Origin: Tieghemostelium lacteum
Taxonomy: Eukaryota
Direction of reading: 5' to 3'
DNA length: 64,000 nucleotides
Assembly: GCA_001606155.1 (NCBI GenBank)
Contig: LODT01000016.1
Location: 385,870-449,869 of the forward strand
Shown here one piece after another: positions 2,550 through 62,675 of this stretch. A program made the position numbers and the translations under genes. The notes beneath the pieces are model-generated. The model searched no databases. It worked only from the letters and a program-made list of their open reading frames with translations, and had not been told where the DNA came from. The stretch's first letter is position 1; every line of letters begins with the position of its first letter.

Positions 2550-2699
2550 TTAAAGAAGGCACAAACTGTGTCAAATTACAAAACCTCAAACAACACAACA
2601 TCTAAAACACAACACTGAATATTGAATTCTTTTCTTTTAATAAAACATTAAAATTACAATATTTTTAAAGAATACCTCTTAATCAATTATTTAACAACT

Positions 2700-3460
2700 A
2701 TAATAACAAAATAAATTTATCAAAATTAAAGAATGGAGATATAACAATTCACACACCAACCAATAGGATATCAAATTCAATATTAATCAGATTGAAACCA
2801 ATAGTTCAACAAATCAAAGGTTCAATCAACAAGAATGGAGGAATCACAATATTTGGAAATATCACAATTTGAAAAGATTCAACAATGATAATACTGAATT
2901 CAATATCATAAATCAACACAATTTTCCAATTTGTAATGATTACAAACAACAAATTGAAGAAAATAACACCATTATAATGTAATCATTCACCAACCAAATC
3001 AATTATCAACAATATATTCATCATTATAGATGATCAACAATCAATCAATATCAATAATAATAATATTATTGAATTTCTAAAACCAATTATTCAATCAATT
3101 CAATTTCAACAAGAATCATCAATATCAATTCTGAATATTTATGGATATAATTTCGGAATAGAAACATCATTCAAATTGGAGATCATTCTTCAGAATGATG
3201 AATTTTCAATCAATGAAATATCATTTAAAAATATTCAACTTTCAACTTCATTTGAATTTGAAGATTCACCAACAACTATCATCATTATTTTGAATAATCA
3301 ACAAAGTAATGAATTTCAAATTTATCCTTTAATAAACAAAATTGGGATTATAATTGGAGTTTCAATTGGATCAATTTCATTGATTTCAATTTTAATTTTA
3401 TCAATTATATTCATTAAACGAAGAAGAAATAAATTGAATTCAAATTCTTTAAAATCTTAA
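2700..3460 (+). pseudogene. Tgr-like IPT/TIG receptor, copy A: a 5'-truncated fragment carrying indels (homologous to 5211..5990 of copy B)
   Basis: Nucleotide alignment to copy B by eye shows several deletions (for example near 2858, 2975 and 3160) that break the frame. Only the last 94 codons (stalk+TM+stop, ORF 3176..3460) remain open. The fragment is preceded by the repeat-unit flank at 2560-2660. Confidence 0.55.
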
Positions 3461-3673
3461 TTTATCTTTTTATCATATTTTCTTTTTTTAATTTTTTACC
3501 CCACAAAATCAATAACAACAGTTTTTATCAAATTACAAAAAACCTCAAACAACACACCACATCAAAAACAATACCACTAAAAATGAATTCATTTCATTTA
3601 ATAAATCATTGAATTTACAATATTTTTAAATTGTATATTAAAATATACAATAGAATATTGATTTAAATTTAAT

Positions 3674-5990
3674 ATGATTCAACAACATTATCTATTATTC
3701 ATCATACTTAATATTTTAATATCACCAACAATCTCTCAAATATATGATATAGATTTTGAGATCAATACCCACGACGAATTAAAATTTAATGTAATGTTTG
3801 ATGTAACCAATCCCATTAATATCACTGAAATCAAAACAGATATCACCAATCAATCATACATTCCTTCTTGTGTAAATATTAGTTTAAATTCCCAACTATG
3901 TACAATTCAACTCAATCCAACATCACAATCAGAAAAATACACTTTCAATGATGTGAATAACCCAACAACACAATTTAAAAAGTTTGTAACACTTAAAAAT
4001 AAATTCAATTTGAAAATTGAATCACAACCAAAAACAAGAAATGAAACAATTATTAAATTCTCAGGATTATATTTTCAACCATATCCACCTGATTTTTATT
4101 ATTTAACAATCACAACAACCAATTTAAATATCAACAAAACATTCAGCAGTTCAGATGGTAAAATCAAATTCACATCACCAACAACATTTCAAATTGATAT
4201 TGGTGAATCTGTTGGTTATATAAATATATCAATGATAGAGAATACTTATCTATCACCTATTTGTCAACTTATTATCAAAGTATGTATTGATCAATTCTAT
4301 TTGATTAAGATATTTTTTTAACAATTAAACCAATTTTTCAGGACCAATTATTGAATCAATTGAATTTGAATCAAATCAAATCACAATAAGAGGTGATAAC
4401 TTTGGAAATTCAATTTATTTAGAATACATAATCATTAAAATGAATTCAACAATTCAAGATCAATCATCATTCTTTGAAAACAACAACAATATCATCATTT
4501 TCAACACATCACAAATCAATGATAACTTTACAAATCAATTTCAATTTGAAATTTCAATTGCAAATATTTCAAATTCAAATTATTTCATCTTTCAAAACAG
4601 TAAATATAATTTGATTAAATAATAGATTTAGATCATTTCTAATTACCTCACTTCAAATCTAAATAGGACCAACAATTGAATCAATTAACACAATTCCTTA
4701 TAAAGGAGGTGAAGTCACAATTTCAGGAAAGAGATTGAATTCTAAACGATTTGATAATTCATCATCTGAAATTGAAATTAAAATTGGTGATTATATTTGT
4801 TCATCACCTTCAAATATCAATAATGATGATAACACATCAATCAAATGTTATCTACCTTCATCATCAAATGATAATGATGAAAATCTTGAAATTTCAATCA
4901 AAATCGATTCAATTGAGAATTATCCATCACCAATCAAATTCACATTCAATAATCCTTCAATTTCAAGATATCAACATGAATATACCAATATTGATTCCAA
5001 TAACAATAATGATGATAGATTGATTATATTTGGTGATAATTTTGATAATTCAAAAGGAATAATTGATAAATCATCATTCACATTCAATGGAATCACAATT
5101 CAACTCAATAATACATTATTCACCAACAACAACAATAACAACAAAACAACTTTGATAATACCTCTATTTCAATTATTTAACAACAACAATATCAATAATA
5201 ACAATATAGATTTATCAAAATTAAAGAATGGAGATCTAACTATTCACACACCAACCAATAAGATATCAAATTCAATATCAATCAAATTGAAACCAATAAT
5301 TCAACAAATCAAAGGTTCAATCAACAAGAATGGAGGAATCATCACAATAATTGGAAAATATTTCAATTTGAAAAGATTCAACAATGATAATACTCAATTC
5401 AATATCATAAATCAACACAATATTCCAATTTGTAATGATTACAAACAACAAATTGAAGATAATAACACCATTAGAATTTGTAATCATTCACCAACCAAAT
5501 CAATTATCAACAATTTATTCATCATTATTGATGATCAACAATCAATCAATATCAACAATAATATTATTGAATTCCAAAAACCAATTATTCAATCAATTCA
5601 ATCTCAACAGGATTCATCAATATCAATTCTGAATATTTATGGATATAATTTCGGAATTGAAACATCATTGATTCAAATTCAAATTGGAGATATCATTCTT
5701 CAGAATGATGAGTTTTCAATCAATGAAATATCATTTGAAAATATTCAACTTTCAACTTCATTTGAATTTGAAATTCACCATTATCCATCACCATTATTGT
5801 GAATAATCAAAAAAGTAATGAATTTCAAATTTATCCTTTAATAAAGAATGATGAAACAATAAACAAAATTGGAATTATAATTGGAATTTCAATTGGATCA
5901 ATTTCATTGATTTCAATTTCAATTTTATCAATTATATTCATTAAACGAAGAAGAAATAAATTGAATTCAAATTCTTTAAAATCTTATCTC
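3674..5990 (+). pseudogene. Tgr-like IPT/TIG receptor, copy B: full-length three-exon copy with two frameshifts
   Basis: Exon 1 (3674..about 4279) has a 1-nt deletion relative to copy C just before the GTATGT donor (atttgtcaactt versus attttgacaactt), so the donor phase no longer matches exon 2 (4342..4599). Exon 3 (4667..) shifts frame at about 5770-5800 (FEFE|IHHYPSPLL*). The TM segment continues in ORF 5799..6146 and the stop is lost. Confidence 0.5.
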
Positions 5991-6217
5991 TTTCTTTTTT
6001 TAATTTTTTTTCATAACCCCACAGCAACCATATCAATAACAATTTTTATCAAATTACAAAAAACCTCAAACAACACACCCATCTATTTTTATCAACACCA
6101 CATCAAAAACACTTCACTTAAAAATGAATACATTTCAAATAATTGAAAGTAAAATATTATAAATTTAAATGAACAATAGTTAGAGATATACAAATAGAAT
6201 ATTGATTTAAATTTAAT

Positions 6218-8730
6218 ATGATTCAAAATCATTATCTATTATTATTCATACTTAATATATTAATATCAACATCAATCTCACAAATTAATTCTATTAATTT
6301 TGGGGGCAATTCAGATGATGATATAAAATTTTTGGTAAATTTTAATTTAAACAATCCCATTAATATCACTGAAATCAAAACTGATTTCACAAATCAATCA
6401 TACATTCCTTCTTGTATGAATGATAGTTTAAATTCCCAAATATGTACAATTCAACTCAATCCAACATCTCAATCAGAAAAATACACATTCATTGATGTGA
6501 ATAACCCAACAATACAATTTAACAGAATTGCAAGACTTGATAATAAATTCAATTTAAAAATTGAATCACAACCAAAAACAAGAAATGAAACAATTATTAA
6601 ATTCTCAGGATTATATTTTCAACCATATCCACCTGATTTTTATTATTTAACAATCACAACAACAAATTTAAATATCAATAAAACATTCAGCAGTTCAGAT
6701 GGTAAAATCAAATTCACATCACCAACAACATTTCAAATTGATATTGGTGAATCTGTTGGTGATATTAAAATATCAATTAAAGAGCCATCTTATCAATCAC
6801 CTATTTTGACAACTTATTATCAAAGTATGTATTGATCAATTTTATTTAATTAGGATCCATATTAATAATTAAAAAAATTTACAGGACCAATTATTGAATC
6901 AATTGAATTTGAATCAAATCAAATCACAATGAGAGGTGATAATTTTGGAAATTCAATTTATTTAGATTATATAGTCATTAAAATGAATTCAACAATTCAA
7001 GATAAATCATCAATCATTGAAAACAACAACAATATTATCATTTTCAACACATCTCAAATCAATGATAACTTTACAAATCAATTTCAATTTGAAATTTCAA
7101 TTGCAAATATTTCAAATTCAAATTATTTCATCTTTCAAAACAGTAAATATAATTTGATTAAATAATAGATTGAGATCATTTCTAATTAAATTCACTTCAA
7201 TTCTAAATAGGACCAACAATTGAATCAATCAATACTATTCCTTATAAAGGAGGTGAGATCACAATTTCAGGAAAGAGATTGAATTCTAAACGATTTGATA
7301 ATTCATTATCTGAAATTGAAATTGAAATTGGTGATTATATTTGCTCATCACCTTCAAATATCAATAATGATGATAATACATCAATCAAATGTAATCTAAC
7401 TTCATCATTAAATGAAAATGATGAAAATCTTGAAATTTCAATCAAAATTGATTCAATTGAGAATAATCCATCACCAATCAAATTCACATTCAATAATCCA
7501 ACAATTTCGAGTTATCAACATGAATATACCAATATTTATTCCAATAATGATGATAAATTGATTATATTCGGTGATAATTTTGATAATTCAAAAGGAATAA
7601 TTGATAAATCATCATTCACATTCAATGGAATCACAATTCAACTCAATAATACAATTTTCACTAATAACATCAATAACAACAAAACCACATTGATTTTACC
7701 TCTAAATCAAATATTTAGCAACAACAACAACAACAATAATAATATAGATTTATCACAATTAAAGAATGGAGATTTAACAATTCACACACCAACTAACAAG
7801 ATATCAAATTCAATATCAATCAAATTGAAACCTATAATTCAACAAATCAAAGGTTCAATCAACAAGAATGGAGGAATAATCACAATAATTGGAAAATATC
7901 TCAATTTGAAAAGATTCAACAATGATAATTCTCAGTTCAATATCATAAATCAACACAATATTTCAATTTGTAATGATTACAAACAACAAATTGAAGATAA
8001 TAACACCATTTTAATTTGTAATCATTTACCAACAAATTCAGTTATCAACAATTTGTTCATTATAATTGATGATCAACAATCAATCAATATCAACAACAAC
8101 AATAATATTATTGAATTTCAAAAACCAATTATTCAATCAATTCAATTTCAACAAAAATCACCATCAATTCTGAATATTTATGGATATAATTTCGGAATTG
8201 AAACATCATTAATTCAAATTCAAATTGGAGATATCATTCTTCAGAATGATGAATTTTCAATCAATGAAATATCATTTGAAAATATTCAAATTTCAACATC
8301 ATTTGGATTTTCAGATATACCAACACTCATCACCATAATTGTGAATAATCAATCCAGTAATGAGTTTCAATTTGATACTGAAAATAGAGGAAAATCTGGT
8401 CTATCTGCTGGGATTATAATAGGAATTGTTTTGAGTATTGTTTGTGTAGCTACAATAATTTTGTTAACTATACTATATAGAAGAAGAAAGAGTAGAGAAG
8501 TTTCAAAAGATAATGTTCAACCAGAATGTGAAATGAGAAATCTACCAAATATAATTGATACTATAGACAAAAAAACTGAAACTGATAAACCAGAACGTCC
8601 ACCTCTAGATGATAAAAGGGATATAAATATTGGAAGAGGTAACTCGGCCTTCGCAATAAGAAAACCAAAACCAATTCGTGGCTCTGATATGACAAAAAAA
8701 CTAGCTCCTTCAATTGACAATTCTGCATAA
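6218..8730 (+). CDS. Tgr-like secreted single-pass receptor with four IPT/TIG-like repeats, copy C (apparently intact); exons 6218..6824, 6885..7142, 7211..8730
   Basis: Signal peptide MIQNHYLLLFILNILISTSISQ. Phase-1 GTATGT donor at 6825 with AG at 6883-6884. GTAAAT donor at 7143 with AG at 7209-7210. IPT-like blocks start P-I-I/T-E-S-I... with GG-ITI-G-NF cores. TM GLSAGIIIGIVLSIVCVATIILLTIL is followed by a basic-acidic cytoplasmic tail of about 80 aa. Confidence 0.6.
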
Positions 8731-8796
8731 ATAAACACATATTTAAATGTATATATTGTATTTAAAATAAAATAGAAAATATAAAAATTAAAATAT

Positions 8797-9926
8797 TTAT
8801 TTACCATTGAAGATATTGGTATTAGGATTATAGTATCTATAATCGACTTTTATAGGATCATAATATTCATTATTATTGATTTCTTGAGTTAAAGAATTAA
8901 TTTTTTCAGATGTGGTTGTTGCACAAATGGAGGCTTTTGTTAAGTAGTTATTAATACCTTTTTTGCTTGCTTTTTTAAAATACATTTTTGCAGAATCGTA
9001 ATCTGGTAGGTTGTTTACAGTACCATGGCCTCTGAAGTGCATTAGTCCAATTCCAATGTACCCTTTTGCATCACCAGATTTGCCTACACCTTCGTAGAGG
9101 TCGGCTGCCTCTTTGTAATTTACATTACACCCAATACCATAGTAATAGTAACTTGCAAGTATCAGTGGAGATGATGTTAAACTACCACCATCTTTGGCTT
9201 TAAGATGATATCTAAAACTCTGAACAAAATCACCAAACCAAGAATAGATTTTTCCCAGAGTATTATAAGCAATAAATTTAGAATAATTACTATATTTGGA
9301 AACTTCTAAATATTTGTTTGTCCATACAAAAGCATCTCTTTTGTATTCTGGATAATCAGCAAGTATAGCACCAACCAATTTTAGACATTCTTGAGACCCA
9401 TATTTTGCTCCTAACAGTGCAAATTCTAACCCTTTGTCAACACTTTTAGAAAGTCCTCCTTCCCCATTCAAATGCCCAATGGAAACCTGATATGGATAAA
9501 ATGTTAGTTAGGATTCATATATATATCATGATTCAATTAGAATATTTACCAATTCAAGTGCTTTCGGGTTATTTTTTTTGGAGGCCTGAATGTATAATTC
9601 ATAGGCACTATTTGTTTTTTTCAATCCGTAATACAAACTTCCAAGGAAGCATAAAGCAGGTGGATGTTTACCATCCTTTAGATGATTACAAATTGATATG
9701 GTTTTGATGATGTTTGTTTCAAAAAGTACATTATTACCTTTACATTGTTCTGCTTTATCACAATAGTCGTATAAAATGTTGTTGAATGCCTTGTCAAAGT
9801 GTTCATATTTGTTTGGTTCATTTGGTGACATTTCAAATGAATCTCCGTCAAGATAATACTGAATTTGGGGTAGTTCAAATTGAATAGCACCATTAATATT
9901 TCTATCTCCATCACTAATTGCATTAC

Positions 9927-21938: not shown

Positions 21939-24900
21939 ATGGTCACTACAATAATCCATAAATTTATTTATATTTGTATTATAATATTTCATTTTGGTAA
22001 GTATATTATTGAATTATATTAACAATATTGAAATATTAATATGCTTAATGAAAAGGTGTGATAAATGGTCAATTTAGATTTCTGGATTTAGTGGTACCTG
22101 GAAGTAATAATGTATATGGTTCGGATGATATTGGATGTGAATATTTTATAAAATTTCAATCCTATGATGAAAGTGTAAATGTAATTTATATATATGAGAC
22201 ACCACCTAGATATCTTGGATCCACATTACAAGGAATACATTCCCTCTATGCAGAGTTGACTTTTAGATCTGCTGTAGGGTCTAATTTAAATGTGTCATTA
22301 CAGTTTAGAGATAGTAATAATCCATTGCAATATAATGTAATCTATGAAGTAAATGATTTATACTGGTTTCCAGTCTGTGAAAGACAACCATATCCTCTAG
22401 ATAACTATGCAACTGAACTATTCTATACACCTGGTGAATCCTACACCTTTTACTATGTCATGAAATTTCTTGATCTTGTAAAATTTGCAAAATTGACATT
22501 TAGTCAGACTTCATCACCAAACTTTTACAAGTGTAGTGGTGAGTGGTTGAATATGAAATATTATCTGGTGACTTGTAATTTTGTAGTTGAACCTGGTGAT
22601 ATATCAGCTACTATTCCTGTGACTATTGAATATAGATTGACTAATAATGAAAACAGCTACCAGACCTATTCCGTGGCATCTTATATGAATAATGGTCAAT
22701 TTCCAATCAGTGATATAATACAGAGATTCTATCCGAATGATACTATTGGTATTTATCAGTGGCCTAATAAATTCTATCAAGAGTTGACAGTTACCAATCC
22801 ACCCTCTAATATATATAGATATATAGTACCATTGAATGTTGCTACTAGTCTGCCTCCTGGAACTTTTGTAAAATATAATCCATATGAAACCATGTTTATA
22901 TATGGAAATTTGTCCACTAGGACTTATATAGACACTGTATCTGTTCCTGATATTGATAGTTCTGTGTATTTCCAACCGTTGACTTTAGATAATATGGTTG
23001 CTCAATCTGTGTTTACAGGGTCACCTAGAGAGTACAATGTAATGGGGTCCTATTCAAAACCTCAATTTTCATTATTAACAACAACAATCTCTACTTTGCT
23101 AGTCCTAGATCAAAGATACCAAGTTCAATATTCATTTTCACCATTCTATTGGTACAGAATGAATATTAATGAGTATAGTAGAATAATGTTTTATGAGTTT
23201 CCCTACGGTATAACATCTATTGTACCTTATAGAACTCTGAATGAATACACATTGGAAGTACCATTAACAGTGTATTCAACTGATATTTCCTATTATAGAG
23301 ATGGTGTAATATCAGATTACAGCTATATAGGGTCACTGGTAGACACAGCAGCACCTCGTTTGGAACCTATGGAATTTGAATATGTAAATTCACAAGAATT
23401 AACATTAATAAGATTGATTGCCTCTGATATGTCATCAGGATTCTCATTTATTGAATTCTATTTTGTTGATAGTAATGATAATAGATTTGAAACTATATTT
23501 CAAGTGACTTCAGAGGATTTGGTAGATGGTAGTGTCAATGATGGTGTATATGAAACTCTTGTAAAACCATATAAATTCTATTCACCAGAGTACAGTATCA
23601 AAGCAACTTATTCAGACCAAGTAGGTAACATAGGTGACATTTCAGAAGGTATTAGTTTTATACCTGATTTTCCATTTTTGGTAGATAACAAGAATCAGTT
23701 AGTTGGTAACTCTAATATCACAATTACAAGTTTTTCATTCTTGGAGAATGAGGTGAATCTAACTAGTGATGGTTTTACCAATGTATTGAAATTTACATGT
23801 GCAGGTACACCAATGAATTCATTTGTCTCTATAGGACTTGTATTTGATGCTGGTAGTGAATACTATGAAAGATTCTTTGGATCTTTTGACACAGTTGAAC
23901 AGGTTTATAAAATTGAATTTTATCTTCCACCTAGACTACAAAGTGGGCCTATTCAGTATTTTATTGAAGGACAGTATTTTAAATTCTCATATATAGCGTT
24001 AAGAGCTATAACCAATTTACCAACGAACTTATCTGTGGTTAGTAACTGGTCAGAGAGATTTCCACCAATGGTTACTAATCTAGTACCGTTTTCAGAGACT
24101 GTTAATGGTATTATTAAATGTAGTTTTAATATCACCATTGAAGATCAAGGAAACGGATTCAAAAGTGGTATTGTTAGTATTTGGTCTGATATAGATCCAC
24201 AATTAAGAAACTTCACATTGTCATCCAATGGATATAACAAGTATTTAGATACTTATCAGATATCATTTACACTCAACCAGAGTGAATGTGTAAATCAGTC
24301 ATTTGAAATCTATTACCTATCATTAACAGACACTAATAATCTAACATCGGATTCAAGTGGGAATCTAAAATTTAACTCATTTATGAAGATTCTAGATACC
24401 ATTCAGGGTTCTTTAACTATTGAAGATTGTCAATCACCACCATCTACAATAAATCCTACACTTACCAATCTAACTATACTCAATAATCTGCCTATTAACG
24501 TTGGGTCCAGTCAAAGAGACTTCGATATATTATTTGAAGTTACTGATTCCTCAGTACCTGTATCTAAACATCATATTCCGTATTGTTATATCTCTACTAT
24601 ATTCCTACGACAAATTAAGGTTCCATCAGTATTTGTGCAGTTCTTAGATAGCTCTAAACTAATAGCTCAATGGAGATGTTCAGGTAGTGTACCATATGGT
24701 TTTGGTGCTAGATCTATTGGAGGTGAAGGTAATAACTTAACAATTAGTATCTATGGATTTGCTAATATTGGTCTATCATTCGGTGGGTCGTCTAATACAT
24801 TTAATGGGTACTATTTAACTACTGAATTTAATATCAGTCCTATAATTGAAGATATAAAATTATCTCCAATGCCTGGGTTATCAAGGTACTTGAAAATGGA

Positions 24901-26188
24901 TATATTTGGAAGACAATTGAAAGGAGTGTTACCAAAGCTGAATATTCTCTACCAAGATTCCATATATCCTGATGTTTTAGAAATTACTTATCAAAGTTAC
25001 ACTTTTATGAGTGGTATAAGAGTTAGATCTAATGTTGGATATGCTAATGTCACTGTAAGATTTAATGACACTCAAACAAATACATTTACCATTTTCACTG
25101 GAAATCCACCTGTTACACCGTCACCTGAATCTCCAAAATGTCAAGGCACACCTGAATGTGGAGGTCCTTCTAATGGGTTGTGTACAGACAGAGGATGTCA
25201 ATGTAAAAGTCCTTGGATTGGACCTACATGTCAATCTCAAATTGTAATCATAACCCCTCCATATATAAACACAACATCACCTACCATTGACAATGATTTC
25301 AATGTTACTTTACCTGATGGTGAAATTGTGTCTTTGAGAAACCTCATTTCCATAGTACAACTTAACGAATACAATTATCAAGGTCAACTGAAATCATCAT
25401 TTCAGTTTACCAGATGGAAATTCACAAATACCACACTTTCAAATCAAACTGATTATCAAGAGTATCTCTATGAATCTGAGATTGCAAATAAGAAATCTAA
25501 TATTACAGTTACCATTCAATACTATAATAAGAAAATGGAAATTACATTTGCCAATGAAAACCTAGTAATGCAACCATCTTCTATAAAGTACAAGATATTT
25601 ATAGATGGATATGCATTTGAAAGTTCACTAAATTATTTGGAATTGGTAATGTCAGTAGCACTGGAATCTTTGGATACTGATGATGACCAATGCTCTCTGT
25701 CACAATTTGGAACTTCAAATGAAGGAGAAAATTCTCAAAATGATTTTGTTAAATTACAAATTGGAGAACATTCACTCTATGGTAGATTCATTAGACGTGG
25801 TATTATAGACGGTAATCGTATAACTAACGTAACTAATAGATTGGTATCTACACAAGATCTAGGACTTAATCCAGTACAACAACAATACTATAAATCACAA
25901 GAATTCATTAGTATGAGAATTCCAAATTTTCATTCCAATTCCACTCTAGATCCTGATTTTAGTGTACTTATTGATACTTCCACCGTAGATAACAAAAATT
26001 CAAATTCAGTATGTTCCAACAATCATTCAAAATCAGGTTTAACTAAATCTAAATTAGCAGGTATCATTATAGGATCCATTTTATTTGCATTAGCAATAGT
26101 CATCATCACCATCTATATAATTAACAAATCTAGAAAACATAAACTTTTCATAAAGAATCTCAATGAAAAGGCACAAGAATTTCAATAA
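21939..26188 (+). CDS. Large type I transmembrane glycoprotein (about 1396 aa) with a membrane-proximal EGF-like module; exons 21939..21996 and 22056..26188
   Basis: Micro-exon ATG at 21939 encodes MVTTIIHKFIYICIIIFHF, then a phase-1 GTAAGT donor at 21997. The acceptor aaaAG at 22054-22055 joins in frame to ORF 22058. The product is a signal peptide, a long N-glycosylation-rich ectodomain, a Cys-rich EGF-like block (CQGTPECGGPSNGLCTDRGCQCKSPWIGPTCQ), TM LAGIIIGSILFALAIVIITIYII and a short basic tail. Confidence 0.55.
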
Positions 26189-53985: not shown

Positions 53986-55047
53986 ATGATAGGTAATGAA
54001 ATCCCAGTATACCCAAAAACATATATGGAATTACACAAATATTTTAATGGATATCGTATATGTAAGGCTATAAATGTGATGGTTAGATTCGAGGTACCTA
54101 GAAGACTTGGAAACTCACTAGAATCCAAACGTTCTAGTGATGATATAGCAAAAGAGATTGGATGTCATGCCGAGGCTTTGTATCGTTTAATGAGAGCTTT
54201 GGCTAGTGAAGGTATTTTCAAAGAAATTATAGACCCTAAAACTCCACGTCTATTTCAGCATACTCAAATGTCATTGGATTTATCAGATCCCTGTTTCCAA
54301 GGTGAATTATTTATGCATACTGGTACTGGTCATTACAAGAGTATGGAAACTCTACCTGAAACCATAATGACTGGAAAATCACAATGTGGTAAAGCATTCA
54401 ATGAAGAAAGTTACTGGCATGCTTTGGCTAAAGACAAGAATATTGAAAATGAGCTTACAATAGGAATGAGTTCTTTAAGTTCAAGACAATTTAATGAAAT
54501 TGTGCAGTTAGGTAATTTTGATCAATTTGAAATTGTTTGTGATTTGGGTGGTTGTGAAGGAGTTTTAATGAAAAATATTCTAGATAATTGTCCAAAAGTT
54601 AAGAAGGGTATTAACTTTGACCAACCACATGTCATCAAAAATATTATGGAGAAGCAAGGTGTAATATCTAGTGATCCTAGATACAGTCAAGTTGGTGGTA
54701 GTTTCTTTGAATCTGTTCCAGAGGCAGACTGTTATACCATGAAATGGATTATTCATGATTGGAATGACGAGAAATCCATTCAAATACTCAATACCATTGC
54801 AAAGTCTATTAAACCAGGTGGAAAAGTCTATATCATTGACTATATCCTCAGTGAAGATGATATGAATTCTGATCATTATAAATTTATAGTTTGGCTTGAT
54901 ATCTTTCTTCTACATCTTTGTGAAGGTAAAGAAAGAACTAAAAAAGAACTTTTGGAAATTGTAAGTCACACTCCATTCAAAGTTGATAGCTATTTATTTC
55001 CAAAGCAAAAACTAGTTCTTCCAATAACTGTTCTCTCTCTTAAATAA
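53986..55047 (+). CDS. Class I SAM-dependent O-methyltransferase (plant-type OMT family 2)
   Basis: N-terminal dimerisation region, SAM motif DLGGCEGVLMKNIL, and a GGSFFESVPEADCYTMKWIIHDWNDEK block typical of COMT-like OMTs. Confidence 0.75.
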   Translation: MIGNEIPVYPKTYMELHKYFNGYRICKAINVMVRFEVPRRLGNSLESKRSSDDIAKEIGCHAEALYRLMRALASEGIFKEIIDPKTPRLFQHTQMSLDLSDPCFQGELFMHTGTGHYKSMETLPETIMTGKSQCGKAFNEESYWHALAKDKNIENELTIGMSSLSSRQFNEIVQLGNFDQFEIVCDLGGCEGVLMKNILDNCPKVKKGINFDQPHVIKNIMEKQGVISSDPRYSQVGGSFFESVPEADCYTMKWIIHDWNDEKSIQILNTIAKSIKPGGKVYIIDYILSEDDMNSDHYKFIVWLDIFLLHLCEGKERTKKELLEIVSHTPFKVDSYLFPKQKLVLPITVLSLK

Positions 55048-55148
55048 ACTTTCCATTATTGAACATTTATGTTTCTTAATATATATATATGTATGTATTT
55101 TTATTTATATGTTTTAAATGTATTTAATAGAGAACAGATTATAATAGT

Positions 55149-57402
55149 TTAGTTTTCAGGAAGTTCATATTGTTTGAAATTATCATTTTTAAGACCCATT
55201 CTTGCTTTTCTTCTTCTTTCTTCTAGAGCATATCTTTTATAGAATATTACAAATACTACAGCTAGAGTAATGGCACAGACTGCTGCTAATACTATTCCAA
55301 CTATAATTCCAACAGACAGTTTTGATTCTGAACCACTGTTGGAACTTTCACTACTTATCTTATTAGGTATAGTTATTTCCATTACATTACTAGGTTGATT
55401 ATTAATAATTACAGATAACTGTTGTGTTGGTTGCTGATTATTTAATTTAATTTGAATGGTTTCAAATGTTAATTCGGTGATGGTGTATTGGTCTGGAGTT
55501 AGAATTGTATTTCCAATTTTAATTTGAATTAATGATTGATCATTTCCGAAATTCTCACCATTTAGAAAAATAGATGAACTATCAAATTGGTATTCAAATG
55601 AATGAATGATTGGTGATAGGAATGCGATTTTAATATCAGCATTAGATTGTTTACCATCAATTGAAACAATAATATTATTAATTACTGATGTTGTTGGTAA
55701 ATGAGTACAAATGATATTATTATCATTATTTTGTGATGGATCATAACATGATGTGTTGTTTTGTAGATTCATAATCTTTAAAACAGTATTTTCATTGTTG
55801 AATCTCTTCATATTTAGATATTTACCAATGATTGTGATTATTCCTCCATTCTTGTTGATAATTCCTTTAATTTCTTGAATTGATGGAATTAATTTAACAG
55901 GGATTGGATTAGTTGATTTACTATAAGGTGTATATACAATTATATCGCCATTTAGAATATTACTATCATTGAATAGTTGAGGTAATGATAATATTAATGA
56001 TGATTTACTACAATTTGCAATTGTATTCAATTTAATAACTTTTGAATTGAGAGTGAAATTACTACTGATCATTAATTGTTGTGAATTATCAAAATTATCA
56101 CCAAGAATTGTAATTGTATTATTAATATCTTGTTCAACTTTGGTGACTTTAGGAAGATAATAAGTGAATTTAAATGGAGGTATATCAGCTTGAACTGAAT
56201 CAATTGATAATGAAATTGGAAGATTTTCATCATTTTCAAAACCTTGAGGCATTGTACATTTCAATGTTGTGAATTTAACATCATCAATATTTGTTGGTGA
56301 TGAACATATTTTATTCCCCATTTTAATGAGGATATCAGAGGATGTTCCATTTTGTCTTTTACAATTCAAATTTTCACCTGTAATTGTAACTTCTCCACCT
56401 GAATATGAATTCAAATTACTTATAGCTGTGAGTTTTGGTTCTATAAAATTAAAATGGTGTTAGGAAAAAAATTTTGTTTTAACATATTTAAATATTTTAT
56501 TTTACATACTTGTCAATACTTTAAATGATGAAAGAGTAGAAATATTTGCGATAAAAAAATCAAAATCATAAGAATTCGAGAAATATTCAATAGATGGATA
56601 TTTTAAAATCACCTTATTATTTGAATATTCAAGATATGATGTTTGATTCTGACCAATTGAATTTATCAAAATATTTGAATAATTTGAAAATTTCGAATCT
56701 CCGAAATTATCACCAGTAATAGTAATATTATCTCCTAAAAAATTTATTGATTCTATAATTGGACCTATAAATATTGTTAGTTTTATATAAATATTTAACT
56801 AAACTATTAAACATACTTTGATAAGAAGTTTTTAAATTTTGTGTTAAAAATGCTAGTTCTATTGAATATTCAATTTCACCAACTGAATCACCTACATCAA
56901 TCTCAAATGTTGTAGAATTAATGAATGTTATATTTCCTAGTGAACTATTGAATGTTCTAGTTTCATTTAAGTTTTTTATGTTGATAAAAAGATTAAAATT
57001 AGGTGGGTATGGCTGGAAATATAAACCTGAGAATCTAAGAATTGAATTGGTATCTGGTTTTGGTTGTGATTCAACTTTTAAATTGAAAGTTTTTAATCCT
57101 ACAAAAATTGAAGAGTCTAAAGTTGGGTGGTTCTCATCATATATATAATACTTTTCTGTTTGTGAAGTTGGTTTAAGTTGAATTGTACAATTTAATTTAG
57201 ATGCCAATAAATAATAACAGTTAGGTATATATGTTTGATTTGTAAAATCAGTTGTGATTTTTGAGATATTAACAGGGTTACTAGCAAGGTATATAATGAA
57301 ATTTAATTTGGATTCTAAATTTTCTTCAAAATTAACTGATATTATTTGGGAGAAAATTGGTGATATAAGAAATAAACAATAAATTATAATTAAATATTTC
57401 AT
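55149..57402 (-). CDS. Tgr-like IPT/TIG receptor, copy D (apparently intact); exons 56817..57402, 56510..56764, 55149..56440
   Basis: Signal peptide MKYLIIIYCLFLISPIFSQ. GTATGT donors at 56816 and 56509 and acceptors tatAG at 56765 and 56441, all phase 1. Exon 3 has three IPT-like repeats, TM LSVGIIVGIVLAAVCAITLAVVFVIFY and tail KRYALEERRRKARMGLKNDNFKQYELPEN. Confidence 0.6.
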
Positions 57403-57589
57403 TGTTAAAATAAGTAAAAAATAAATATAAATATAAAATGATTTTGATAAATTTGTAAATTTAAAAATTTTTAGTTGCAAAAAATAGCTTAAGGTGTTGA
57501 AAAGGGTATTTTGGTTTTTTTTCTTAAAAATAGATTTTTAAATAATTTAATTAGAAAATAACAATATAAACTTAGACTATTTTTATACT

Positions 57590-58100
57590 ATTGGTTAAGG
57601 TTTATCTTATTCACTCTAGAACCTATATAATCCTTGAATTTTTTTATTTCTTTTCTTTCTTTTGATTTTTTATATTTTATTTTCTATATTAGCAAGGGAT
57701 AGTAGGACGCCTGTCTGTAAAACTGGAAATTAGGGTGCAACCCCTGTGGAGAGATTTTTATTTTATTGACCCTAAAAATAATCTTTAGAATTCTTCAAAA
57801 TCACCACTACCACCATCATAATCACTATCATCGGTGTCATCTTTTCGTTTTTGAACTTCATCTGTCCCTAAATGTCTTATCATCATAATCGACAGAAATT
57901 TCTTTGAGAGATATGTCGAACTTATGTTTTTTCTGTGGTGCAGTCAATTTTTAAATTAAAAATATTTCAACTGCAATAAATGGAAAAGGTAACAAAACTC
58001 CTAATAAAAGCTCAGTAGATGGTTTTGAAATTGTGAATCACCTACATCAATCTCAAATGTTGTAGAATTAATGATTGTTATATTTCCAAGTGACACCTAG
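57590..58100 (-). pseudogene. Scrambled Tgr-like debris: a 3'-end piece (57590..57660), unrelated GC-richer filler, and exon-3/exon-1-like pieces (57890..58100)
   Basis: Short stretches align to 58195..58345 (3' end of copy E) and 56885..56945 (exon 1 of copy D). No continuous frame. Confidence 0.35.
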
Positions 58101-58170
58101 GCTATTATATTTCCTAGTTAATTTTACTAAGATTCTAAAAATGTAAACAATATATGTTATTTTTATACTA

Positions 58171-60397
58171 TTATTGGTTAGGTTTTTTCTGATTCACTGT
58201 AGAATCTATAAAATCCTTGAATCTTTTTATTTCTTTTTTTACATTTGATCTTGTATAAAGTTTTAAAATTAAAAATATTATAACTGCAATAAATGGAAGA
58301 GGTAACAAAATACCTAATAAAAGATCAATTTGTGATTTTTTAAATGTGGCTCTTTCAGTTGGTTTTGGTGGAATATAAATTTCCAATGAATTACTTATTT
58401 GTTGATTTACAATAATTGTAATATCTTGTGTTGTTTTCAGTGATACTAGTTGAAATTCAACTTTTTCGAATGTTAATTGAGTAATGGAGTATTGGTCTGG
58501 AGTTAAAATTGTATTTCCAATTTTAATTTGAATTAATGATTGATCATTTCCGAAATTCTCGCCTTTAAGAATGATAGATGAAATTTCAGATTGGTATTCA
58601 AATGAATGAATGATTGGTGATTGGAATTCGACTTTAATATCTGTAATAGATTGTTTACCATCAATTGAAACAATGATATTATTAATTACTGATGTTGTTG
58701 GTAAATGAGTACAAATGATATTATTATCATTATTTTGTGATGGATCATAACATGATGTGTTGTTTTGTAGATTCATAATCTTTAAAACAGTATTTTCATT
58801 ATTGAATCTCTTCATATTTAGATATTTACCAATGATTGTGATTATTCCTCCATTCTTGTTGATAATTCCTTTAATTTCTTGAATTGATGGAATTAATTTA
58901 ACAGGGATTGGATTAGTTGATTTACTATAAGGTGTATATACAATAATATCACCATTTAGAATATTACTATCATTGAATAGTTGAGGTAATGATAATATTA
59001 ATGATGATTTACTACAATTTGCAATTGTATTCAATTTAATAACTTTTGAATTGAGAGTGAAATTACTACTGATCATTAATTGTTGTGAATTATCAAAATT
59101 ATCACCAAGAATTGTAATTGTATTATTAATATCTTGTTCAACTTTGGTGACTTTAGGAAGATAATAAGTGAATTTAAATGGAGGTATATCAGCTTGAACT
59201 GAATCAATTGATAATGAAATTGGAAGATTTTCATCATTTTCAAAACCTTGAGGCATTGTACATTTCAATGTTGTGAATTTAACATCATCAATATTTGTTG
59301 GTGATGAACATATTTTATTCCCCATTTTAATGAGGATATCAGAGGATGTTCCATTTTGTCTTTTACAATTCAAATTTTCACCTGTAACTGTAACTTCTCC
59401 ACCTGAATATGAATTCAAATTACTTATAGCTGTGAGTTTTGGTTCTATAAAAATTTTCAGTTGTTAGGATATTAATTTTGTTTGTTCATTTCCTATTGTA
59501 CATACTTGTCAATACTTTAAATGATGAAAGAGTAGAAATATTTGCGATAAAAAAATCAAAATCATAAGAATTCGAGAAATATTCAATAGATATAGATTTT
59601 AAAATCACCTTATTATTTGAATATTCAAGATAAGATGTTTGATTCTGGCTGATTGAATTTATCAAAATATTTGAATAATTTGAAAATTTCGAATTTCCAA
59701 AATTATCACCAGTAATAGTAATATTATCTCCTAAAAACTTTACTGATTCAATTATAGGCCCTATAATTGGGTTAGATAAGATTTTAAGTGGTCTAAATTA
59801 ATTCCACATACCTTGATAAGAAGTTTTGTAAATTGGTAAGGTAATATATTGATCAGTCATGGAGTATTCAATTTCACCCACCGAATCACCAACATCAATT
59901 TCAAATGAGGTAGAATTAATGAATGTTATATTTCCTAATAAACTATTAAATGATTTGGTTTCATTCAAATTTGTTATGTTGATTACTAAATTAAATATAG
60001 GATAGGGCTGGAAATATAGACCTGAAAATCGAAGAATAGAGTTGTTATTTGGTTTTGGTGTTGATACAACTAGTAAATTGAATTTTTTAAACATGACAAA
60101 AATGGATGTGCTTATTGTAGGGTGATTTTCATCATATATAAAATACCTTTCAGTTTGAGAAGATGGTAAAAGTTCAATTGAACAATTTATACTAGAACCA
60201 TATTTTATACAACTAGGTATATATGTTTGATTTGTAAAATCAGTTGTAATTTTAGTGATATTTACTAGGTCAGTAGAAGCTAATTGTAATCTGAATTTTA
60301 AGTAGGTTTCAGAGTTCTCTTCATAATTGACCACTGATATTTGGGTGAAAATTGGTGAAATTAAACTTAAACAATATAGTAGAATTATATATTTCAT
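58171..60397 (-). CDS. Tgr-like IPT/TIG receptor, copy E (apparently intact); exons 59812..60397, 59506..59760, 58171..59444
   Basis: Signal peptide MKYIILLYCLSLISPIFTQ. Donors at 59811 (GTATGT; intron 51 nt) and 59505 (GTATGT), and acceptors at 59761 and 59445. Its TM/tail cassette (LLLGILLPLPFIAVIIFLILKLYTRSNVKKEIKRFKDFIDSTVNQKKPNQ) differs from copy D despite a near-identical ectodomain. Confidence 0.6.
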
Positions 60398-60592: not shown

Positions 60593-61870
60593 TTATTGGC
60601 TTGGATTTTTCTGATTCACTGTAGGATCTATAAAATCCTTGAATCTTTTTATTTCTTTTCTTTCATTTGATCTTGTATAAAGTTTTAAAATTAAAAATAT
60701 CGCAACGGCAATAAATGGAAGAGGTAACAAAATACCTAATAAAAGATCAATTTGTGATTTTGAAATGGTGGCTTTTTCAGTTGTTTTTAGTGGAATATAA
60801 ATTTCCAATGAATTACTTATTTGTTGATTTACAATAATTGTAATATCTTGTGTTGTTTTCAGTGATACTAGTTGAAATTCAACTTTTTCGAATGTTAATT
60901 GAGTAATGGAGTATTGGTCTGGAGTTAAAATTGTATTTCCAATTTTAATTTGAATTAATGATTGATCATTTCCGAAATTCTCACCATTTAGGATGATAGA
61001 TGAAATTTCAGATTGGAATTCAAATGAATGAATGATTGGTGATTGAAATGCAACTTTAATATCAGTATTAGATTGTTTACCATCAATTGAAACAATGATA
61101 TTATTAATTACTGATGTTGTTGGTAAATGAGTACAAATGATATTATTATCATTATTTTGTGATGGATCATAACATGATGTGTTGTTTTGTAGATTCATAA
61201 TCTTTAAAACAGTATTTTCATTATTGAATCTCTTCATATTTAGATATTTACCAATGATTGTGATTATTCCTCCATTCTTGTTGATAATTCCTTTAACTTC
61301 TTGAATTGATGGAATTAATTTAACAGGGATTGGATTAGTTGATTTACTATAAGGTGTATATACAATAATATCACCATTTAGAATATTACTATCATTGAAT
61401 AGTTGAGGTAATGATAATGTTAATGATGATTTACTACAATTTGCAATTGTATTCAATTTAATAACTTTTGAATTGAAAGTGAAATTACTACTGATCATTA
61501 ATTGTTGTGAATTATCAAAATTATCACCAAGAATTGTAATTGTATTATTAATATCTTGTTCAACCTTGGTGACTTTAGGAAGATAATAAGTGAATTTAAA
61601 TGGAGGTATATCTGCTTGAATTGAATCAATTGATAATGAAATTGGAAGATTTTCATCATTTTCAAAACCTTGAGGCATTGTACACTTTAATGTTGTGAAT
61701 TTAACATCATCAATATTTGTTGGTGATGAACATATTTTATTCCCCATTTTAATGAGGATATCAGAGGATGTTGGAATAATCATTGATCATTTCCAAAATT
61801 CTCACCTTTTAGAATGATAGATGAGCTATTGGATTGGTATTCAAATGAATGAATTAACTGTGGAAATCAC
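60593..61870 (-). pseudogene. Tgr-like copy F: 5'-truncated (exon 3 only, from mid first IPT repeat) plus an inverted/rearranged 85-bp exon-3 fragment at 61784..61870
   Basis: ORF 60593..61783 is about 97% identical to copy E exon 3 but starts at ...TSSDILIKMGNK. Sequence 61784..61870 matches an internal piece of exon 3 (about 60958..61040) out of context. No exons 1-2 lie upstream. Confidence 0.5.
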
Positions 61871-62554
61871 ATATGTTTGTAGTGGTGTATAACTATACAT
61901 GAAAGTTGTTTAAAATATGTATTAAATTGTAAACTGTTTATATATATATTCATTATCAGTTGAGTATATTGCTCTTCTTTAATATGAATCATCATCTTCA
62001 TCATCTTCATCATCTTCATCCCTAGATAAAGATTCACCACTTATTCATCATTACCTATATCCAATCAGATATTTCATATTCTCAGAATCACTTTTTGAAT
62101 CTTCTTTAAGACCTAAATACTGGTTATTACTTTGAGAAGATCTACATGGAATGGTTTCTCTTTAATCCAGATTTGTGATATACACATAGTAAAAATTTTT
62201 TTGTTTTAATCTGGAGCTCTAAATGGTTGTCAAGTGTATAAAACGCTCTAAACTCTTTAAACACTTTCTACAATTACTTTAACATTCCACACTTGTTTAC
62301 CACACATGCATTTATTAAATTACCAAAATTAAGAATTTGAATGAGGAATAAACGTGGGAATACGTTATTATTGTAAAAGATAAATTTATAGTGTAATAAT
62401 AAACAAATCTAGGAATATCTCCACCACAAGTTGGGAATTTCCCCGCTCTATAATTTGGGAGAAAATAGGTGATAAATAAATAATTATATATTTCATATTT
62501 TTTAAAATAAGTATACTTCATACTATGATGTTATATGTATTATAACTTATCATA

Positions 62555-62675
62555 GTAACAATAGATGGAGAGTTTAAAATCACCTTATTATTCGAATATT
62601 CAAGATATGATGTTTGATTCTGACTGATTGAATTCATCAAAATATTTGAATAATTTGAACTCCCTAGTACTGATC
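62555..62675 (-). pseudogene. Orphan fragment of Tgr-like exon 2
   Basis: Aligns to 56580..56690 and 59585..59690 (…NKVIL..SISQNQTSYLEYSNN…). Confidence 0.35.

What the first reader, a model, noticed from the sequence alone, without database searches (positions are those of the whole stretch)
55149..59444. Mosaic receptors: near-identical ectodomains fused to unrelated TM/cytoplasmic cassettes (D versus E/F; also A/B versus C)
Copies D and E are about 99% identical at the nucleotide level across exon 2, intron 2 and the first 300 codons of exon 3 (through ...IIVSIDGKQS). They then diverge abruptly. D ends with stalk ...PNKISSESSNSGSESK, TM LSVGIIVGIVLAAVCAITLAVVFVIFY and tail KRYALEERRRKARMGLKNDNFKQYELPEN. 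E and F end with a different last IPT half, TM LLLGILLPLPFIAVIIFLILKLY and tail TRSNVKKEIKRFKDFID.... The plus-strand array shows the same pattern. A and B end in TM KIGIIIGVSIGSISLISILILSIIF with tail KRRRNKLNSNSLKS, whereas C has TM GLSAGIIIGIVLSIVCVATIILLTIL and an 80-aa tail. This argues for cassette exchange (gene conversion with breakpoints near 55700/58700 and 5750/8290), producing receptors with the same binding surface but different signalling or anchoring ends.
Basis: seen in the sequence. Interest (0 to 1): 0.7.

Follow-up and report, generated by a model that had tools for sequence, protein, structure and literature searches.

The report
Mosaic tandem Tgr-like receptor genes
Neighbouring copies of a slime-mould cell-surface adhesion gene share a recently copied, almost identical middle section but have old, different ends, which is the ordinary result of recombination inside tandem gene arrays and not a swap of signalling tails.

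Summary
The window comes from Tieghemostelium (Dictyostelium) lacteum. It holds two tandem arrays of a lineage-specific IPT/TIG, single-pass membrane ("Tgr-like") gene family.

The core observation holds. D and E differ at 4 of 767 nt in exon 3 (56438-55672). Identity then falls in steps to 91%, 68% and unalignable. B and C are about 90% identical until 5832/8373, then unalignable. The D/E mosaic is far beyond chance (chi2 211 against 22 or less in permutations).

Several details are wrong:
- Intron 2 is divergent, not 99% identical.
- Exon 1 of D and E is only 68% identical in protein (dS 0.66), so the ectodomains are not the same.
- The A/B transmembrane segment is a diverged homologue of the family's canonical one, as are those of D and C.
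- A, F and probably B are fragments or pseudogenes.

Best reading: old paralogues whose centres were overwritten by gene conversion or unequal crossing-over. The gene at the 3' edge of each array keeps the ancestral tail, and internal copies share a derived tail private to that array. No tail was found as a mobile module elsewhere. Two other adjacent T. lacteum pairs show the same pattern in their annotated proteins. Recombination and mosaicism of this kind are already published for D. discoideum tgr genes.

The parts
55149..57402 (-). Gene D (KYR00242, 710 aa): exon 1 57402-56815, exon 2 56762-56511, exon 3 56438-55149. Signal peptide, N-terminal domain, five TIG-like repeats, stalk, canonical family TM, 29-aa tail. 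It is the 3'-most gene of the right array.
   Evidence: 100% match to P0001 and exon mapping. Pfam TIG hits. TM similarity to family members.
58171..60397 (-). Gene E (KYR00243, 704 aa): exon 1 60397-59810, exon 2 59758-59507, exon 3 59442-58171. It carries the derived E/F-type stalk, TM and tail.
   Evidence: Exon mapping to P0002. The tail is found only in E, F and the remnant between D and E.
55672..56448 (-). Near-identical tract in D. Its partner in E is 58676-59452. There are 4 differences, and the exonic part has dS 0.024. This is the inferred recent gene-conversion tract.
   Evidence: Difference list, dS by segment, permutation test.
55503..55671 (-). Intermediate zone, 91% D-E identity, covering the last strand of TIG4 and the first half of TIG5. 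D, E and F each have private changes here. Read as an older or patchy conversion tract.
   Evidence: Domain coordinates.
55149..55502 (-). D-specific 3' end. The second half of TIG5 (55502-55373) is homologous to E/F at dS 0.90. The stalk, TM and tail (55372-55149) cannot be aligned to E/F.
60593..61783 (-). Copy F: exon 3 only, with no signal peptide, exon 1 or exon 2 attached. Its centre is 98-100% identical to D and E. It has the E/F-type tail. Probable pseudogene.
57577..58093 (-). Remnant of a fourth copy between E and D. It has an exon-1 piece (58093-58034, 96.7% to D and 90.6% to E) joined to E/F-type tail pieces (58035-57948 and 57674-57577), with 273 nt of unmatched sequence in between.
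61774..62659 (-). Scrambled family fragments upstream of F: a TIG4/5 piece (61854-61774), an exon-1 start (62514-62449) and an exon-2 piece (62659-62559), separated by unrelated sequence.
6218..8730 (+). Gene C, intact, about 793 aa conceptually, and the 3'-most gene of the left array. It has the canonical TM and a long tail of roughly 85 aa that is conserved in paralogue P0009 on another contig.
3674..5990 (+). Copy B (annotated only as the 431-aa KYR00218). It has 1-nt deletions at about 4260 (in a T run) and about 5770 (a lost G). The A/B-type TM and tail are reached only in a shifted frame.
2571..3460 (+). Copy A, a fragment. An intergenic-type piece (2571-2669, matching 3528-3630) is fused to the 3' part of exon 3 (from 2671). 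It has the A/B-type TM and a 14-aa tail.
8374..8730 (+). C-specific stalk, TM and tail. Homology with A and B ends at 3323/5832/8373, which is position 82 of 84 of the last Pfam TIG match.

Best explanation
These are two tandem arrays of a lineage-specific Tgr-like gene family of Tieghemostelium lacteum. Each gene encodes a signal peptide, an N-terminal domain, five IPT/TIG repeats, one TM and a short or long cytoplasmic tail.

The arrays evolve by birth and death through non-allelic homologous recombination:
- Unequal crossing-over or partial duplication makes new copies.
- Internal deletions and frameshifts destroy copies (A, F, the D-E remnant, the fragments upstream of F, and probably B).
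- Gene conversion overwrites the middle of the survivors.

D and E are old paralogues whose core, from the 3' end of intron 2 to near the end of TIG4, was replaced recently. Older or patchy tracts lie on either side (exon 2, and the end of TIG4 to mid TIG5).

The tails were not exchanged. They lie beyond the 3' limit of the homogenised block or repeat unit, which falls in or at the end of the last TIG domain. The gene at the 3' edge of each array (D and C) therefore keeps the ancestral canonical TM and tail. Internal copies share a derived short tail that is private to their array.

Shown: the mosaic, its significance, the divergence by segment, the decay of several copies, and the distribution of tail types. 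Inferred: the mechanism, the direction of exchange, and the ancestral state of the tails.
For: - Divergence by segment for D and E: exon 1 dS 0.66, exon 2 0.15, centre 0.024, next zone 0.17, second half of TIG5 0.90.
- The low-divergence block is highly significant.
- Segment histories conflict. In the centre F is the odd one out at 8 sites, D at 3 and E at 0. In the second half of TIG5, D is the odd one out at 42 sites, and E and F at none.
- The repeat unit of the left array is 89% identical over 3.2 kb, including intergenic DNA, and stops exactly at the end of the last TIG domain.
- The D, C and A/B TMs are mutually homologous and match six other family members. The E/F TM is the outlier.
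- The C tail is conserved at 60% in P0009 on another contig, while the B, C and P0009 bodies are equidistant.
- Dead copies and fragments are present in both arrays.
- Adjacent pairs KYQ91794/5 and KYQ91434/5 show the same pattern in their annotated proteins: 85-100% identity in the body, then a drop from mid TIG5. In a six-gene array on another contig, the edge copy alone has an extended C-terminus.
- Recombination, partial duplicates, pseudogenes and interlocus conversion are documented for D. discoideum tgr genes.
Against: - No DNA from the other T. lacteum loci could be fetched. The array-edge rule therefore rests on two arrays seen as DNA plus protein-level hints, and gene orientation elsewhere is unknown.
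- The origin of the E/F tail and of the A/B tail is unexplained.
- At the left edge of the left array, the expected unit junction is not preserved.
- The breaks fall in or at the end of TIG5 in all four pairs, and at almost the same residue in three of them. This could point to something more specific than neutral tract boundaries.
- The direction of conversion cannot be determined.
Confidence: 0.7

Rival explanations
1. A 3' segment (half of the last TIG domain plus stalk, TM and tail) was brought in by recombination with another family member. The result is a set of receptors with a shared ectodomain and alternative anchoring or signalling ends, possibly kept by selection.
For: - Homology is lost abruptly, exactly at a domain boundary, in B/C.
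- The A/B TM is homologous to family TMs only at an old, family-level divergence, while the A/B body is about 90% identical to C. Body and tail of A/B therefore have different histories.
- The break falls in the same part of TIG5 in four pairs.
Against: - No donor was found. Among 166 retrieved relatives and in the whole window, the E/F and A/B tails occur only in their own arrays.
- D and E also differ in exon 1 at old divergence, so the centre is the young piece.
- A, B and F look non-functional.
- The E-F tail has dN about equal to dS (0.093 and 0.093), which gives no sign of constraint.
Confidence: 0.15
2. This model is partial tandem duplication with a tail made de novo. The 3' breakpoint of the duplicated segment lay just after the last TIG domain. 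The upstream copies then read into junction or former non-coding AT-rich DNA, which happened to encode a hydrophobic stretch (the E/F tail). Later conversion homogenised the centres.
For: - The E/F TM shows little or no similarity to the family TMs (z about 1-6, mostly below 3) and none to D at nucleotide level (z = -0.2).
- Derived tails sit on the internal copies and the canonical tail on the 3'-most copy.
- Convergent neighbour genes end only 67-100 nt from the stops of C and D. A duplication of the complete 3' end would therefore have to include part of the neighbouring gene.
- Random ORFs in this AT-rich DNA are often hydrophobic.
Against: - The 5' edge of the right array is scrambled, so the predicted source sequence cannot be seen.
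- The A/B tail does not fit this model, because its TM is homologous to the canonical TM.
- No similarity was found between the E tail and the 5' flanks of the paralogous left array.
Confidence: 0.1
3. This model is an assembly artefact. The near-identity, or the linkage of bodies to tails, results from collapse or mis-joining of 454 reads across tandem repeats.
For: - The genome was assembled from 29x 454 reads with Newbler and Staden.
- The longest identical D-E run is 436 nt, close to the mean read length implied by 1.5 million reads at 29x (my arithmetic).
- One frameshift in B lies in a T homopolymer, which is a typical 454 error.
Against: - The assembly was guided by a fosmid map and finished by primer walking into gap-free contigs.
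- Copy-specific differences persist inside the tract, and F is a third, independently different copy.
- D's tail abuts a unique neighbouring gene, so its position at the array edge is fixed.
- The same pattern appears in two other adjacent pairs on two other contigs.
Confidence: 0.04

Closest known systems
Dictyostelium discoideum tgr (Tiger) gene family, especially the tgrB/tgrC locus
   Same: - The proteins are single-pass membrane proteins with a signal peptide and IPT/TIG (Ig E-set) repeats.
[quoted passage not shown]
- Intact genes are mosaics made by recombination. Partial duplicates, paralogues lacking a TM and interlocus gene conversion are reported (PMC12745789; bioRxiv 10.1101/2025.10.22.684067).
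- A profile of the family studied here detects a D. discoideum Ig E-set protein (hhalign probability 97.9%, E 4e-13).
   Different: - Sequence similarity is distant: 27-28% identity over about 240 columns.
- According to PMC4931340, tgrB1 is restricted to group 4 and tgrC1 to D. discoideum, so these T. lacteum genes are not orthologues.
- The genes here lie in same-strand tandem arrays, not in divergently transcribed B/C pairs.
- The proteins are shorter (about 700-800 aa against about 900) and carry a different TM motif (LSxGIIxxIVL).
- No functional or polymorphism data exist for them.
Concerted evolution of tandem gene arrays by unequal crossing-over and gene conversion, with array-edge effects (general molecular-evolution knowledge, recalled and not tested against a specific reference)
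   Same: - Internal repeat units are homogenised, including their intergenic DNA.
- The outer flank of the terminal copy escapes homogenisation.
- Identity changes in sharp steps at tract boundaries.
- Hybrid and deleted copies accumulate.
   Different: Here the 3' limit of the unit lies inside the coding region, in or at the end of the last extracellular domain. The terminal and internal copies therefore encode different membrane anchors and tails, and do not differ only in flanking DNA.
Vertebrate paired immune receptors such as KIR, Ly49, PIR and SIRP (own knowledge, offered only as an analogy)
   Same: Neighbouring paralogues have very similar extracellular regions joined to different TM and cytoplasmic parts. 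They are generated by recombination within gene clusters.
   Different: - No signalling motifs were identified or tested in the tails here.
- The ectodomains are similar only in part, because the N-terminal domain and the last TIG domain differ.
- Several short-tail copies look like pseudogenes.
- There is no homology to these vertebrate families.

Membership tests
Tgr-like IPT/TIG adhesion/recognition family of Dictyostelia | N-terminal signal peptide | tested here: inconclusive
   D, E, B and C begin with a short hydrophobic leader (for example MKYLIIIYCLFLISPIFSQ), seen by eye. No signal-peptide predictor was available.
Tgr-like IPT/TIG adhesion/recognition family of Dictyostelia | Repeated IPT/TIG (Ig E-set) extracellular domains | tested here: met
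   Pfam PF01833 was hit in D, E and F (E 5.5e-10 to 7.7e-14) and in B (3.5e-5). C scored 18.4 bits, below the 20.9 cut-off. Single-repeat scans were above the cut-off for three segments and weak for the others.
Tgr-like IPT/TIG adhesion/recognition family of Dictyostelia | Single C-terminal transmembrane segment followed by a cytoplasmic tail | tested here: inconclusive
   D, E, F, A and C each have one hydrophobic stretch of 23-27 aa followed by basic residues, seen by eye. No TM predictor was run. B reaches its TM only through a frameshift.
Tgr-like IPT/TIG adhesion/recognition family of Dictyostelia | Detectable homology to D. discoideum family members | tested here: met
   The family profile hits Dictyostelium proteins P0010 and P0011 at E 1e-14 to 2e-12. 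hhalign against the AX4 protein P0012 (XP_644983) gives probability 97.9%. Whether XP_644983 is a named tgr gene was not checked.
TgrB1/TgrC1 allorecognition pair | Orthology to tgrB1 or tgrC1 | not tested
   No tgrB1 or tgrC1 sequence was compared here. The literature lists tgrB1 as restricted to group 4 and tgrC1 as restricted to D. discoideum (PMC4931340 Table 3), which argues against orthology.
TgrB1/TgrC1 allorecognition pair | Adjacent heterotypic partner genes (reported as diverging gene pairs in PMC12745789) with high population polymorphism | tested here: not met
   The genes here lie in same-strand tandem arrays. Polymorphism cannot be tested from one genome.
Interlocus (non-allelic) gene conversion tract | A block of much lower divergence flanked on both sides by older paralogous sequence | tested here: met
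   For D and E, dS is 0.66 in exon 1, 0.024 in the centre and 0.90 in the second half of TIG5. The block gives chi2 211 against 21.9 or less in permutations.
Interlocus (non-allelic) gene conversion tract | Conflicting relationships between segments among three or more copies | tested here: met
   Odd-one-out counts differ by segment. In the centre they are F 8, D 3 and E 0. In the second half of TIG5 they are D 42, E 0 and F 0. The remnant's exon-1 piece is closer to D, while its tail is of the E/F type.
Modular tail cassettes shared between different receptors | The same TM/tail module attached to different ectodomains at other loci | tested here: not met
   The E/F and A/B tails are absent from the rest of the window and from the 166 retrieved relatives. 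The C tail recurs only in the full-length paralogue P0009. The search was limited to representatives at 50% identity, and the peptide search failed its own positive control.

The most novel reading that the evidence does not exclude
In this T. lacteum subfamily, tandem neighbours may be kept as functional pairs. One gene would have the canonical TM and a longer, possibly signalling, tail. The other would have a short or novel anchor. Their extracellular cores would be kept identical by conversion, with a conserved recombination boundary in the last TIG domain. That would be a receptor/decoy or receptor/ligand arrangement, evolved independently of D. discoideum TgrB1/TgrC1. The recurrence of the break in or at the end of TIG5 in four pairs (at nearly the same residue in three), and the pairing of a long or canonical tail with a short or derived one in each, is compatible with this but does not show it.
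Probability: 0.1. Interest if true: 0.6.

Novelty: new member of a known kind. Interest (0 to 1): 0.3.

Why it matters
The result shows that the recombination-driven birth-and-death dynamics recently described for D. discoideum tgr genes also act on an independent, lineage-specific IPT/TIG expansion in a group 3 dictyostelid. It also gives a clean worked example: conversion tracts with base-level boundaries, decayed copies, and terminal copies that keep the ancestral tail. This is useful for annotating the roughly 76 IPT/TIG genes of T. lacteum and for choosing genes (D, E and C) for functional tests of adhesion or kin recognition outside group 4. It does not reveal a new mechanism.

Tried and rejected
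- **DNA of the other T. lacteum loci.** I tried to fetch it for P0003, P0006 and P0004. None is on record, so the other pairs could be compared only as proteins.
- **Peptide search with the concatenated E and A tails.** It returned nothing, not even P0002, which contains the E tail exactly. I treat it as uninformative, not as a negative result.
- **Profile search with the word index.** It was swamped by low-complexity candidates and added little. The exhaustive representative search was more useful.
- **E/F tail as a frameshifted, inverted or diverged version of the D tail.** There is no nucleotide similarity in either orientation (z = -0.2 and 0.8).
- **E/F tail derived from the 5' flank of the paralogous left array.** No similarity was found.
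- **A/B tail derived from sequence upstream of the left array.** Only the intergenic piece 2571-2669 matches. The tail itself has no counterpart there.
- **One ancestral short-tail/long-tail pair that later dispersed.** This is rejected provisionally. The short tails of different loci do not resemble each other. By eye in the alignment, the second half of TIG5 also looks closer within pairs than between loci, although I did not quantify that.
- **cDNA-mediated conversion.** Intron 2 is retained but divergent in both genes, so this is not supported.


Full report
**Source and family**

The window is AT-rich (GC 24-35%). The exon-3 ORF of copy D is 100% identical to a 710-aa protein annotated in Tieghemostelium (Dictyostelium) lacteum, and E matches a 704-aa neighbour. 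Their accessions are consecutive, KYR00242 and KYR00243, and B is KYR00218.

Pfam finds IPT/TIG (PF01833) repeats in D, E, F and B, and a sub-threshold match in C. By inspection each full gene encodes a signal peptide, a 180-aa N-terminal domain with no Pfam match (exon 1), five TIG-like repeats, a stalk, one hydrophobic segment and a cytoplasmic tail.

An exhaustive profile search finds 271 relatives. The closest are all T. lacteum paralogues, followed by 800-880-aa IPT/TIG membrane proteins from T. lacteum, Polysphondylium violaceum and Cavenderia fasciculata, and by unnamed sequences. A D. discoideum AX4 Ig E-set protein is detected at 97.9% hhalign probability.

The T. lacteum genome paper counts 76 IPT/TIG proteins in this species. 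It treats them as the Tgr adhesion family, and lists tgrB1 as restricted to group 4 and tgrC1 as restricted to D. discoideum (PMC4931340). These genes are therefore a lineage-specific Tgr-like expansion, not orthologues of the allorecognition pair.

**Right array (minus strand)**

The gene models are:
- D: exon 1 57402-56815, exon 2 56762-56511, exon 3 56438-55149.
- E: exon 1 60397-59810, exon 2 59758-59507, exon 3 59442-58171.

A global alignment with 50-nt windows and a list of every difference give these segments for D against E:

| Segment | D coordinates | D-E result |
|---|---|---|
| Exon 1 | 57402-56815 | 61-88% nt identity in windows; 68% protein identity; dS 0.66, dN 0.23 |
| Exon 2 | 56762-56511 | 14 differences in 252 nt; dS 0.15 |
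| Intron 2 | 56510-56439 | 17 substitutions plus an 8-nt indel in 72 nt |
| Exon 3 centre | 56438-55672 | 4 differences in 767 nt; dS 0.024 |
| End of TIG4 to mid TIG5 | 55671-55503 | 15 differences in 169 nt; dS 0.17 |
| Second half of TIG5 | 55502-55373 | 42 differences in 130 nt; dS 0.90, dN 0.43 |
| Stalk, TM, tail | 55372 onward | no similarity above shuffled controls, either orientation |

A scan for the best low-divergence segment gives chi2 211.5. The largest value in 200 permutations is 21.9.

The identity drop is real, stepwise and sharp. However, the young block is flanked by old sequence on both sides. That is the signature of a conversion tract laid over old paralogues, not of a tail replacement.

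F (60593-61783) carries only exon 3. In the centre, F is the odd one out at 8 sites, D at 3 and E at 0. In the second half of TIG5, D is the odd one out at all 42 variable sites. Different segments therefore have different histories.

The array also holds a dead copy between E and D. It consists of an exon-1 piece that is 96.7% identical to D, fused to E/F-type tail pieces. Scrambled exon-1, exon-2 and TIG4/5 fragments lie upstream of F.

**Left array (plus strand)**

A 3.2-kb unit (2671-5832 against 5157-8373) is 89% identical, including introns and intergenic DNA. B and C stay at 77-100% in 50-nt windows until 5832/8373 and then fall to 36-50%. This point is position 82 of 84 of the last Pfam TIG match in C (ORF residues 283-365), so homology ends exactly at the end of the ectodomain.

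- A is a fragment. A piece of intergenic sequence is fused to mid exon 3.
- B has two 1-nt deletions. One lies in a T run and could be a 454 error. The other is a lost G in TIG5. The annotated B protein is a 431-aa truncation without a TM.
- Only C is clearly intact.

**Tails**

- The TM regions of D, C and A/B resemble each other and those of P0003, P0004, P0005, P0006, P0009 and P0018. They share the motif LSxGIIxxIVL followed by basic residues (z 4-13 against shuffles; tblastn E 1e-4 to 3e-7).
- The E/F TM is the outlier. It occurs only in E, F and the remnant between E and D.
- C's long cytoplasmic tail is 60% identical to that of P0009 (KYQ93635, on another contig), including a conserved C-terminal motif. 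The bodies of B, C and P0009 are about equally distant from one another (81-94% by segment).

The C-type tail is therefore ancestral and the A/B tail derived. D carries the canonical type, and the E/F tail is the novelty. In both arrays the canonical tail sits on the 3'-most gene. The stop codons of those two genes lie 67-100 nt from a convergent, unrelated neighbour: a Sel1-repeat gene next to C and an O-methyltransferase next to D.

**Pattern at other loci**

- Adjacent genes KYQ91794/KYQ91795 (P0004/P0003) and KYQ91434/KYQ91435 (P0008/P0006) are 85-100% identical in protein through the body. They diverge from mid TIG5 onward. In each pair one partner has a long canonical tail and the other a short or unrelated one.
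- In a six-gene array (KYQ93829-34), only the edge copy has an extended C-terminus.
- I could not obtain DNA or strand information for these loci.

**Interpretation**

The best reading is birth-and-death evolution of tandem arrays by non-allelic homologous recombination. Copies arise by unequal exchange or partial duplication and decay by deletion and frameshift. Conversion repeatedly homogenises the middle of the genes. The 3' limit of the repeat unit or tract lies in or at the end of TIG5, so terminal genes keep the ancestral anchor and tail, while internal copies share a derived one.

The cassette-exchange idea and the phrase "same binding surface" are not supported, for three reasons:
- The N-terminal domain and TIG5 differ between D and E.
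- No tail behaves as a module elsewhere.
- Half of the copies look dead.

Two questions stay open: where the E/F and A/B tails came from, and why the break recurs in TIG5.

The assembly (29x 454 reads, fosmid map, primer walking) could in principle confuse near-identical repeats. Against that, copy-specific variants persist inside the tract, a third copy (F) differs independently, D's tail abuts a unique gene, and other contigs show the same pattern.

**Comparison with known work and novelty**

Two 2025 studies of D. discoideum and its relatives report the following for tgr genes (PMC12745789; bioRxiv 10.1101/2025.10.22.684067):
- The genes sit in clusters of duplicates and pseudogenes.
- Intact tgrB and tgrC genes are conglomerates with many recombination breakpoints.
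- Partial duplicates and TM-less paralogues exist.
- Paralogues intermingle in trees, as expected from interlocus gene conversion.

The present locus is a further example of that known behaviour, in a different species and a different subfamily. It is a tidy case study, not a surprise. Interest is modest (0.3).

Noticed in passing
window 56439-56510 and 59443-59506: Intron 2 of D and E is much more divergent (17 substitutions plus an 8-nt indel in 72 nt) than the exons on either side (94% and 99.5% identical). The recent conversion tract therefore starts at the 3' end of the intron, and exon 2 belongs to a separate, older tract.
   Followed up: partly
window 57577-58093: A dead fourth copy lies between E and D. 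A 60-nt exon-1 piece, closer to D than to E, is fused directly to E/F-type tail pieces, with 273 nt of unmatched sequence (57675-57947) inside.
   Followed up: partly
window 61774-62659: Upstream of F lies a scramble of family fragments: a TIG4/5 piece, an exon-1 start and an exon-2 piece, in the wrong order. They surround about 700 nt (61855-62558) that mostly matches nothing else in the window. Its origin was not determined.
   Followed up: partly
window 4255-4265 and 5765-5775: B has two 1-nt deletions relative to A and C. The first lies in a T homopolymer (TTT against TTTT) and could be a 454 sequencing error. The second is a lost G and looks real. The public annotation of B (KYR00218, 431 aa) is a truncated model.
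   Followed up: partly
window 2571-2669 versus 3528-3630: A piece of the A-B intergenic region is repeated immediately upstream of fragment A and fused to mid exon 3. A is therefore an internally deleted copy, not a simple truncation at the array edge.
   Followed up: partly
window 22058-26188 (+): A 1376-aa ORF carries DUF7035, DUF7743, DUF7949 and a ComC supersandwich domain, so it is a ComC-like developmental membrane protein. Its C-terminal region gives a weak tblastn match (E 0.002) to the C-type stalk/TM region.
   Followed up: no
T. lacteum contig of 880875 bp (proteins P0164, P0163, P0071, P0166, P0165, P0162 = KYQ93829-93834): Six consecutive genes form one cluster at 90% identity. 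Their annotated lengths range from 503 to 747 aa. Only the last one (KYQ93834) has a 47-aa C-terminal extension beyond the shared ...FAFK end.
   Followed up: partly
protein P0005 (KYQ88623): This clear member of the IPT/TIG subfamily (605 aa, canonical TM and long tail) is named 'Pol protein' in the public record. That is probably a mis-annotation, or a gene model that touches a retroelement.
   Followed up: no
window 8730-8797 and 55047-55149: The 3'-terminal genes of both arrays (C and D) end only 67 and 100 nt from convergent, unrelated genes (a Sel1-repeat gene and an O-methyltransferase). This tight spacing may explain why the limits of the repeat units fall inside the 3' coding region.
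   Followed up: no
tool behaviour: A word-indexed peptide search with the E and A tails returned no hit at E <= 10, even though P0002 contains the E tail exactly. Hydrophobic, low-complexity queries appear to be filtered out, so negative results of this kind should not be trusted.
   Followed up: no
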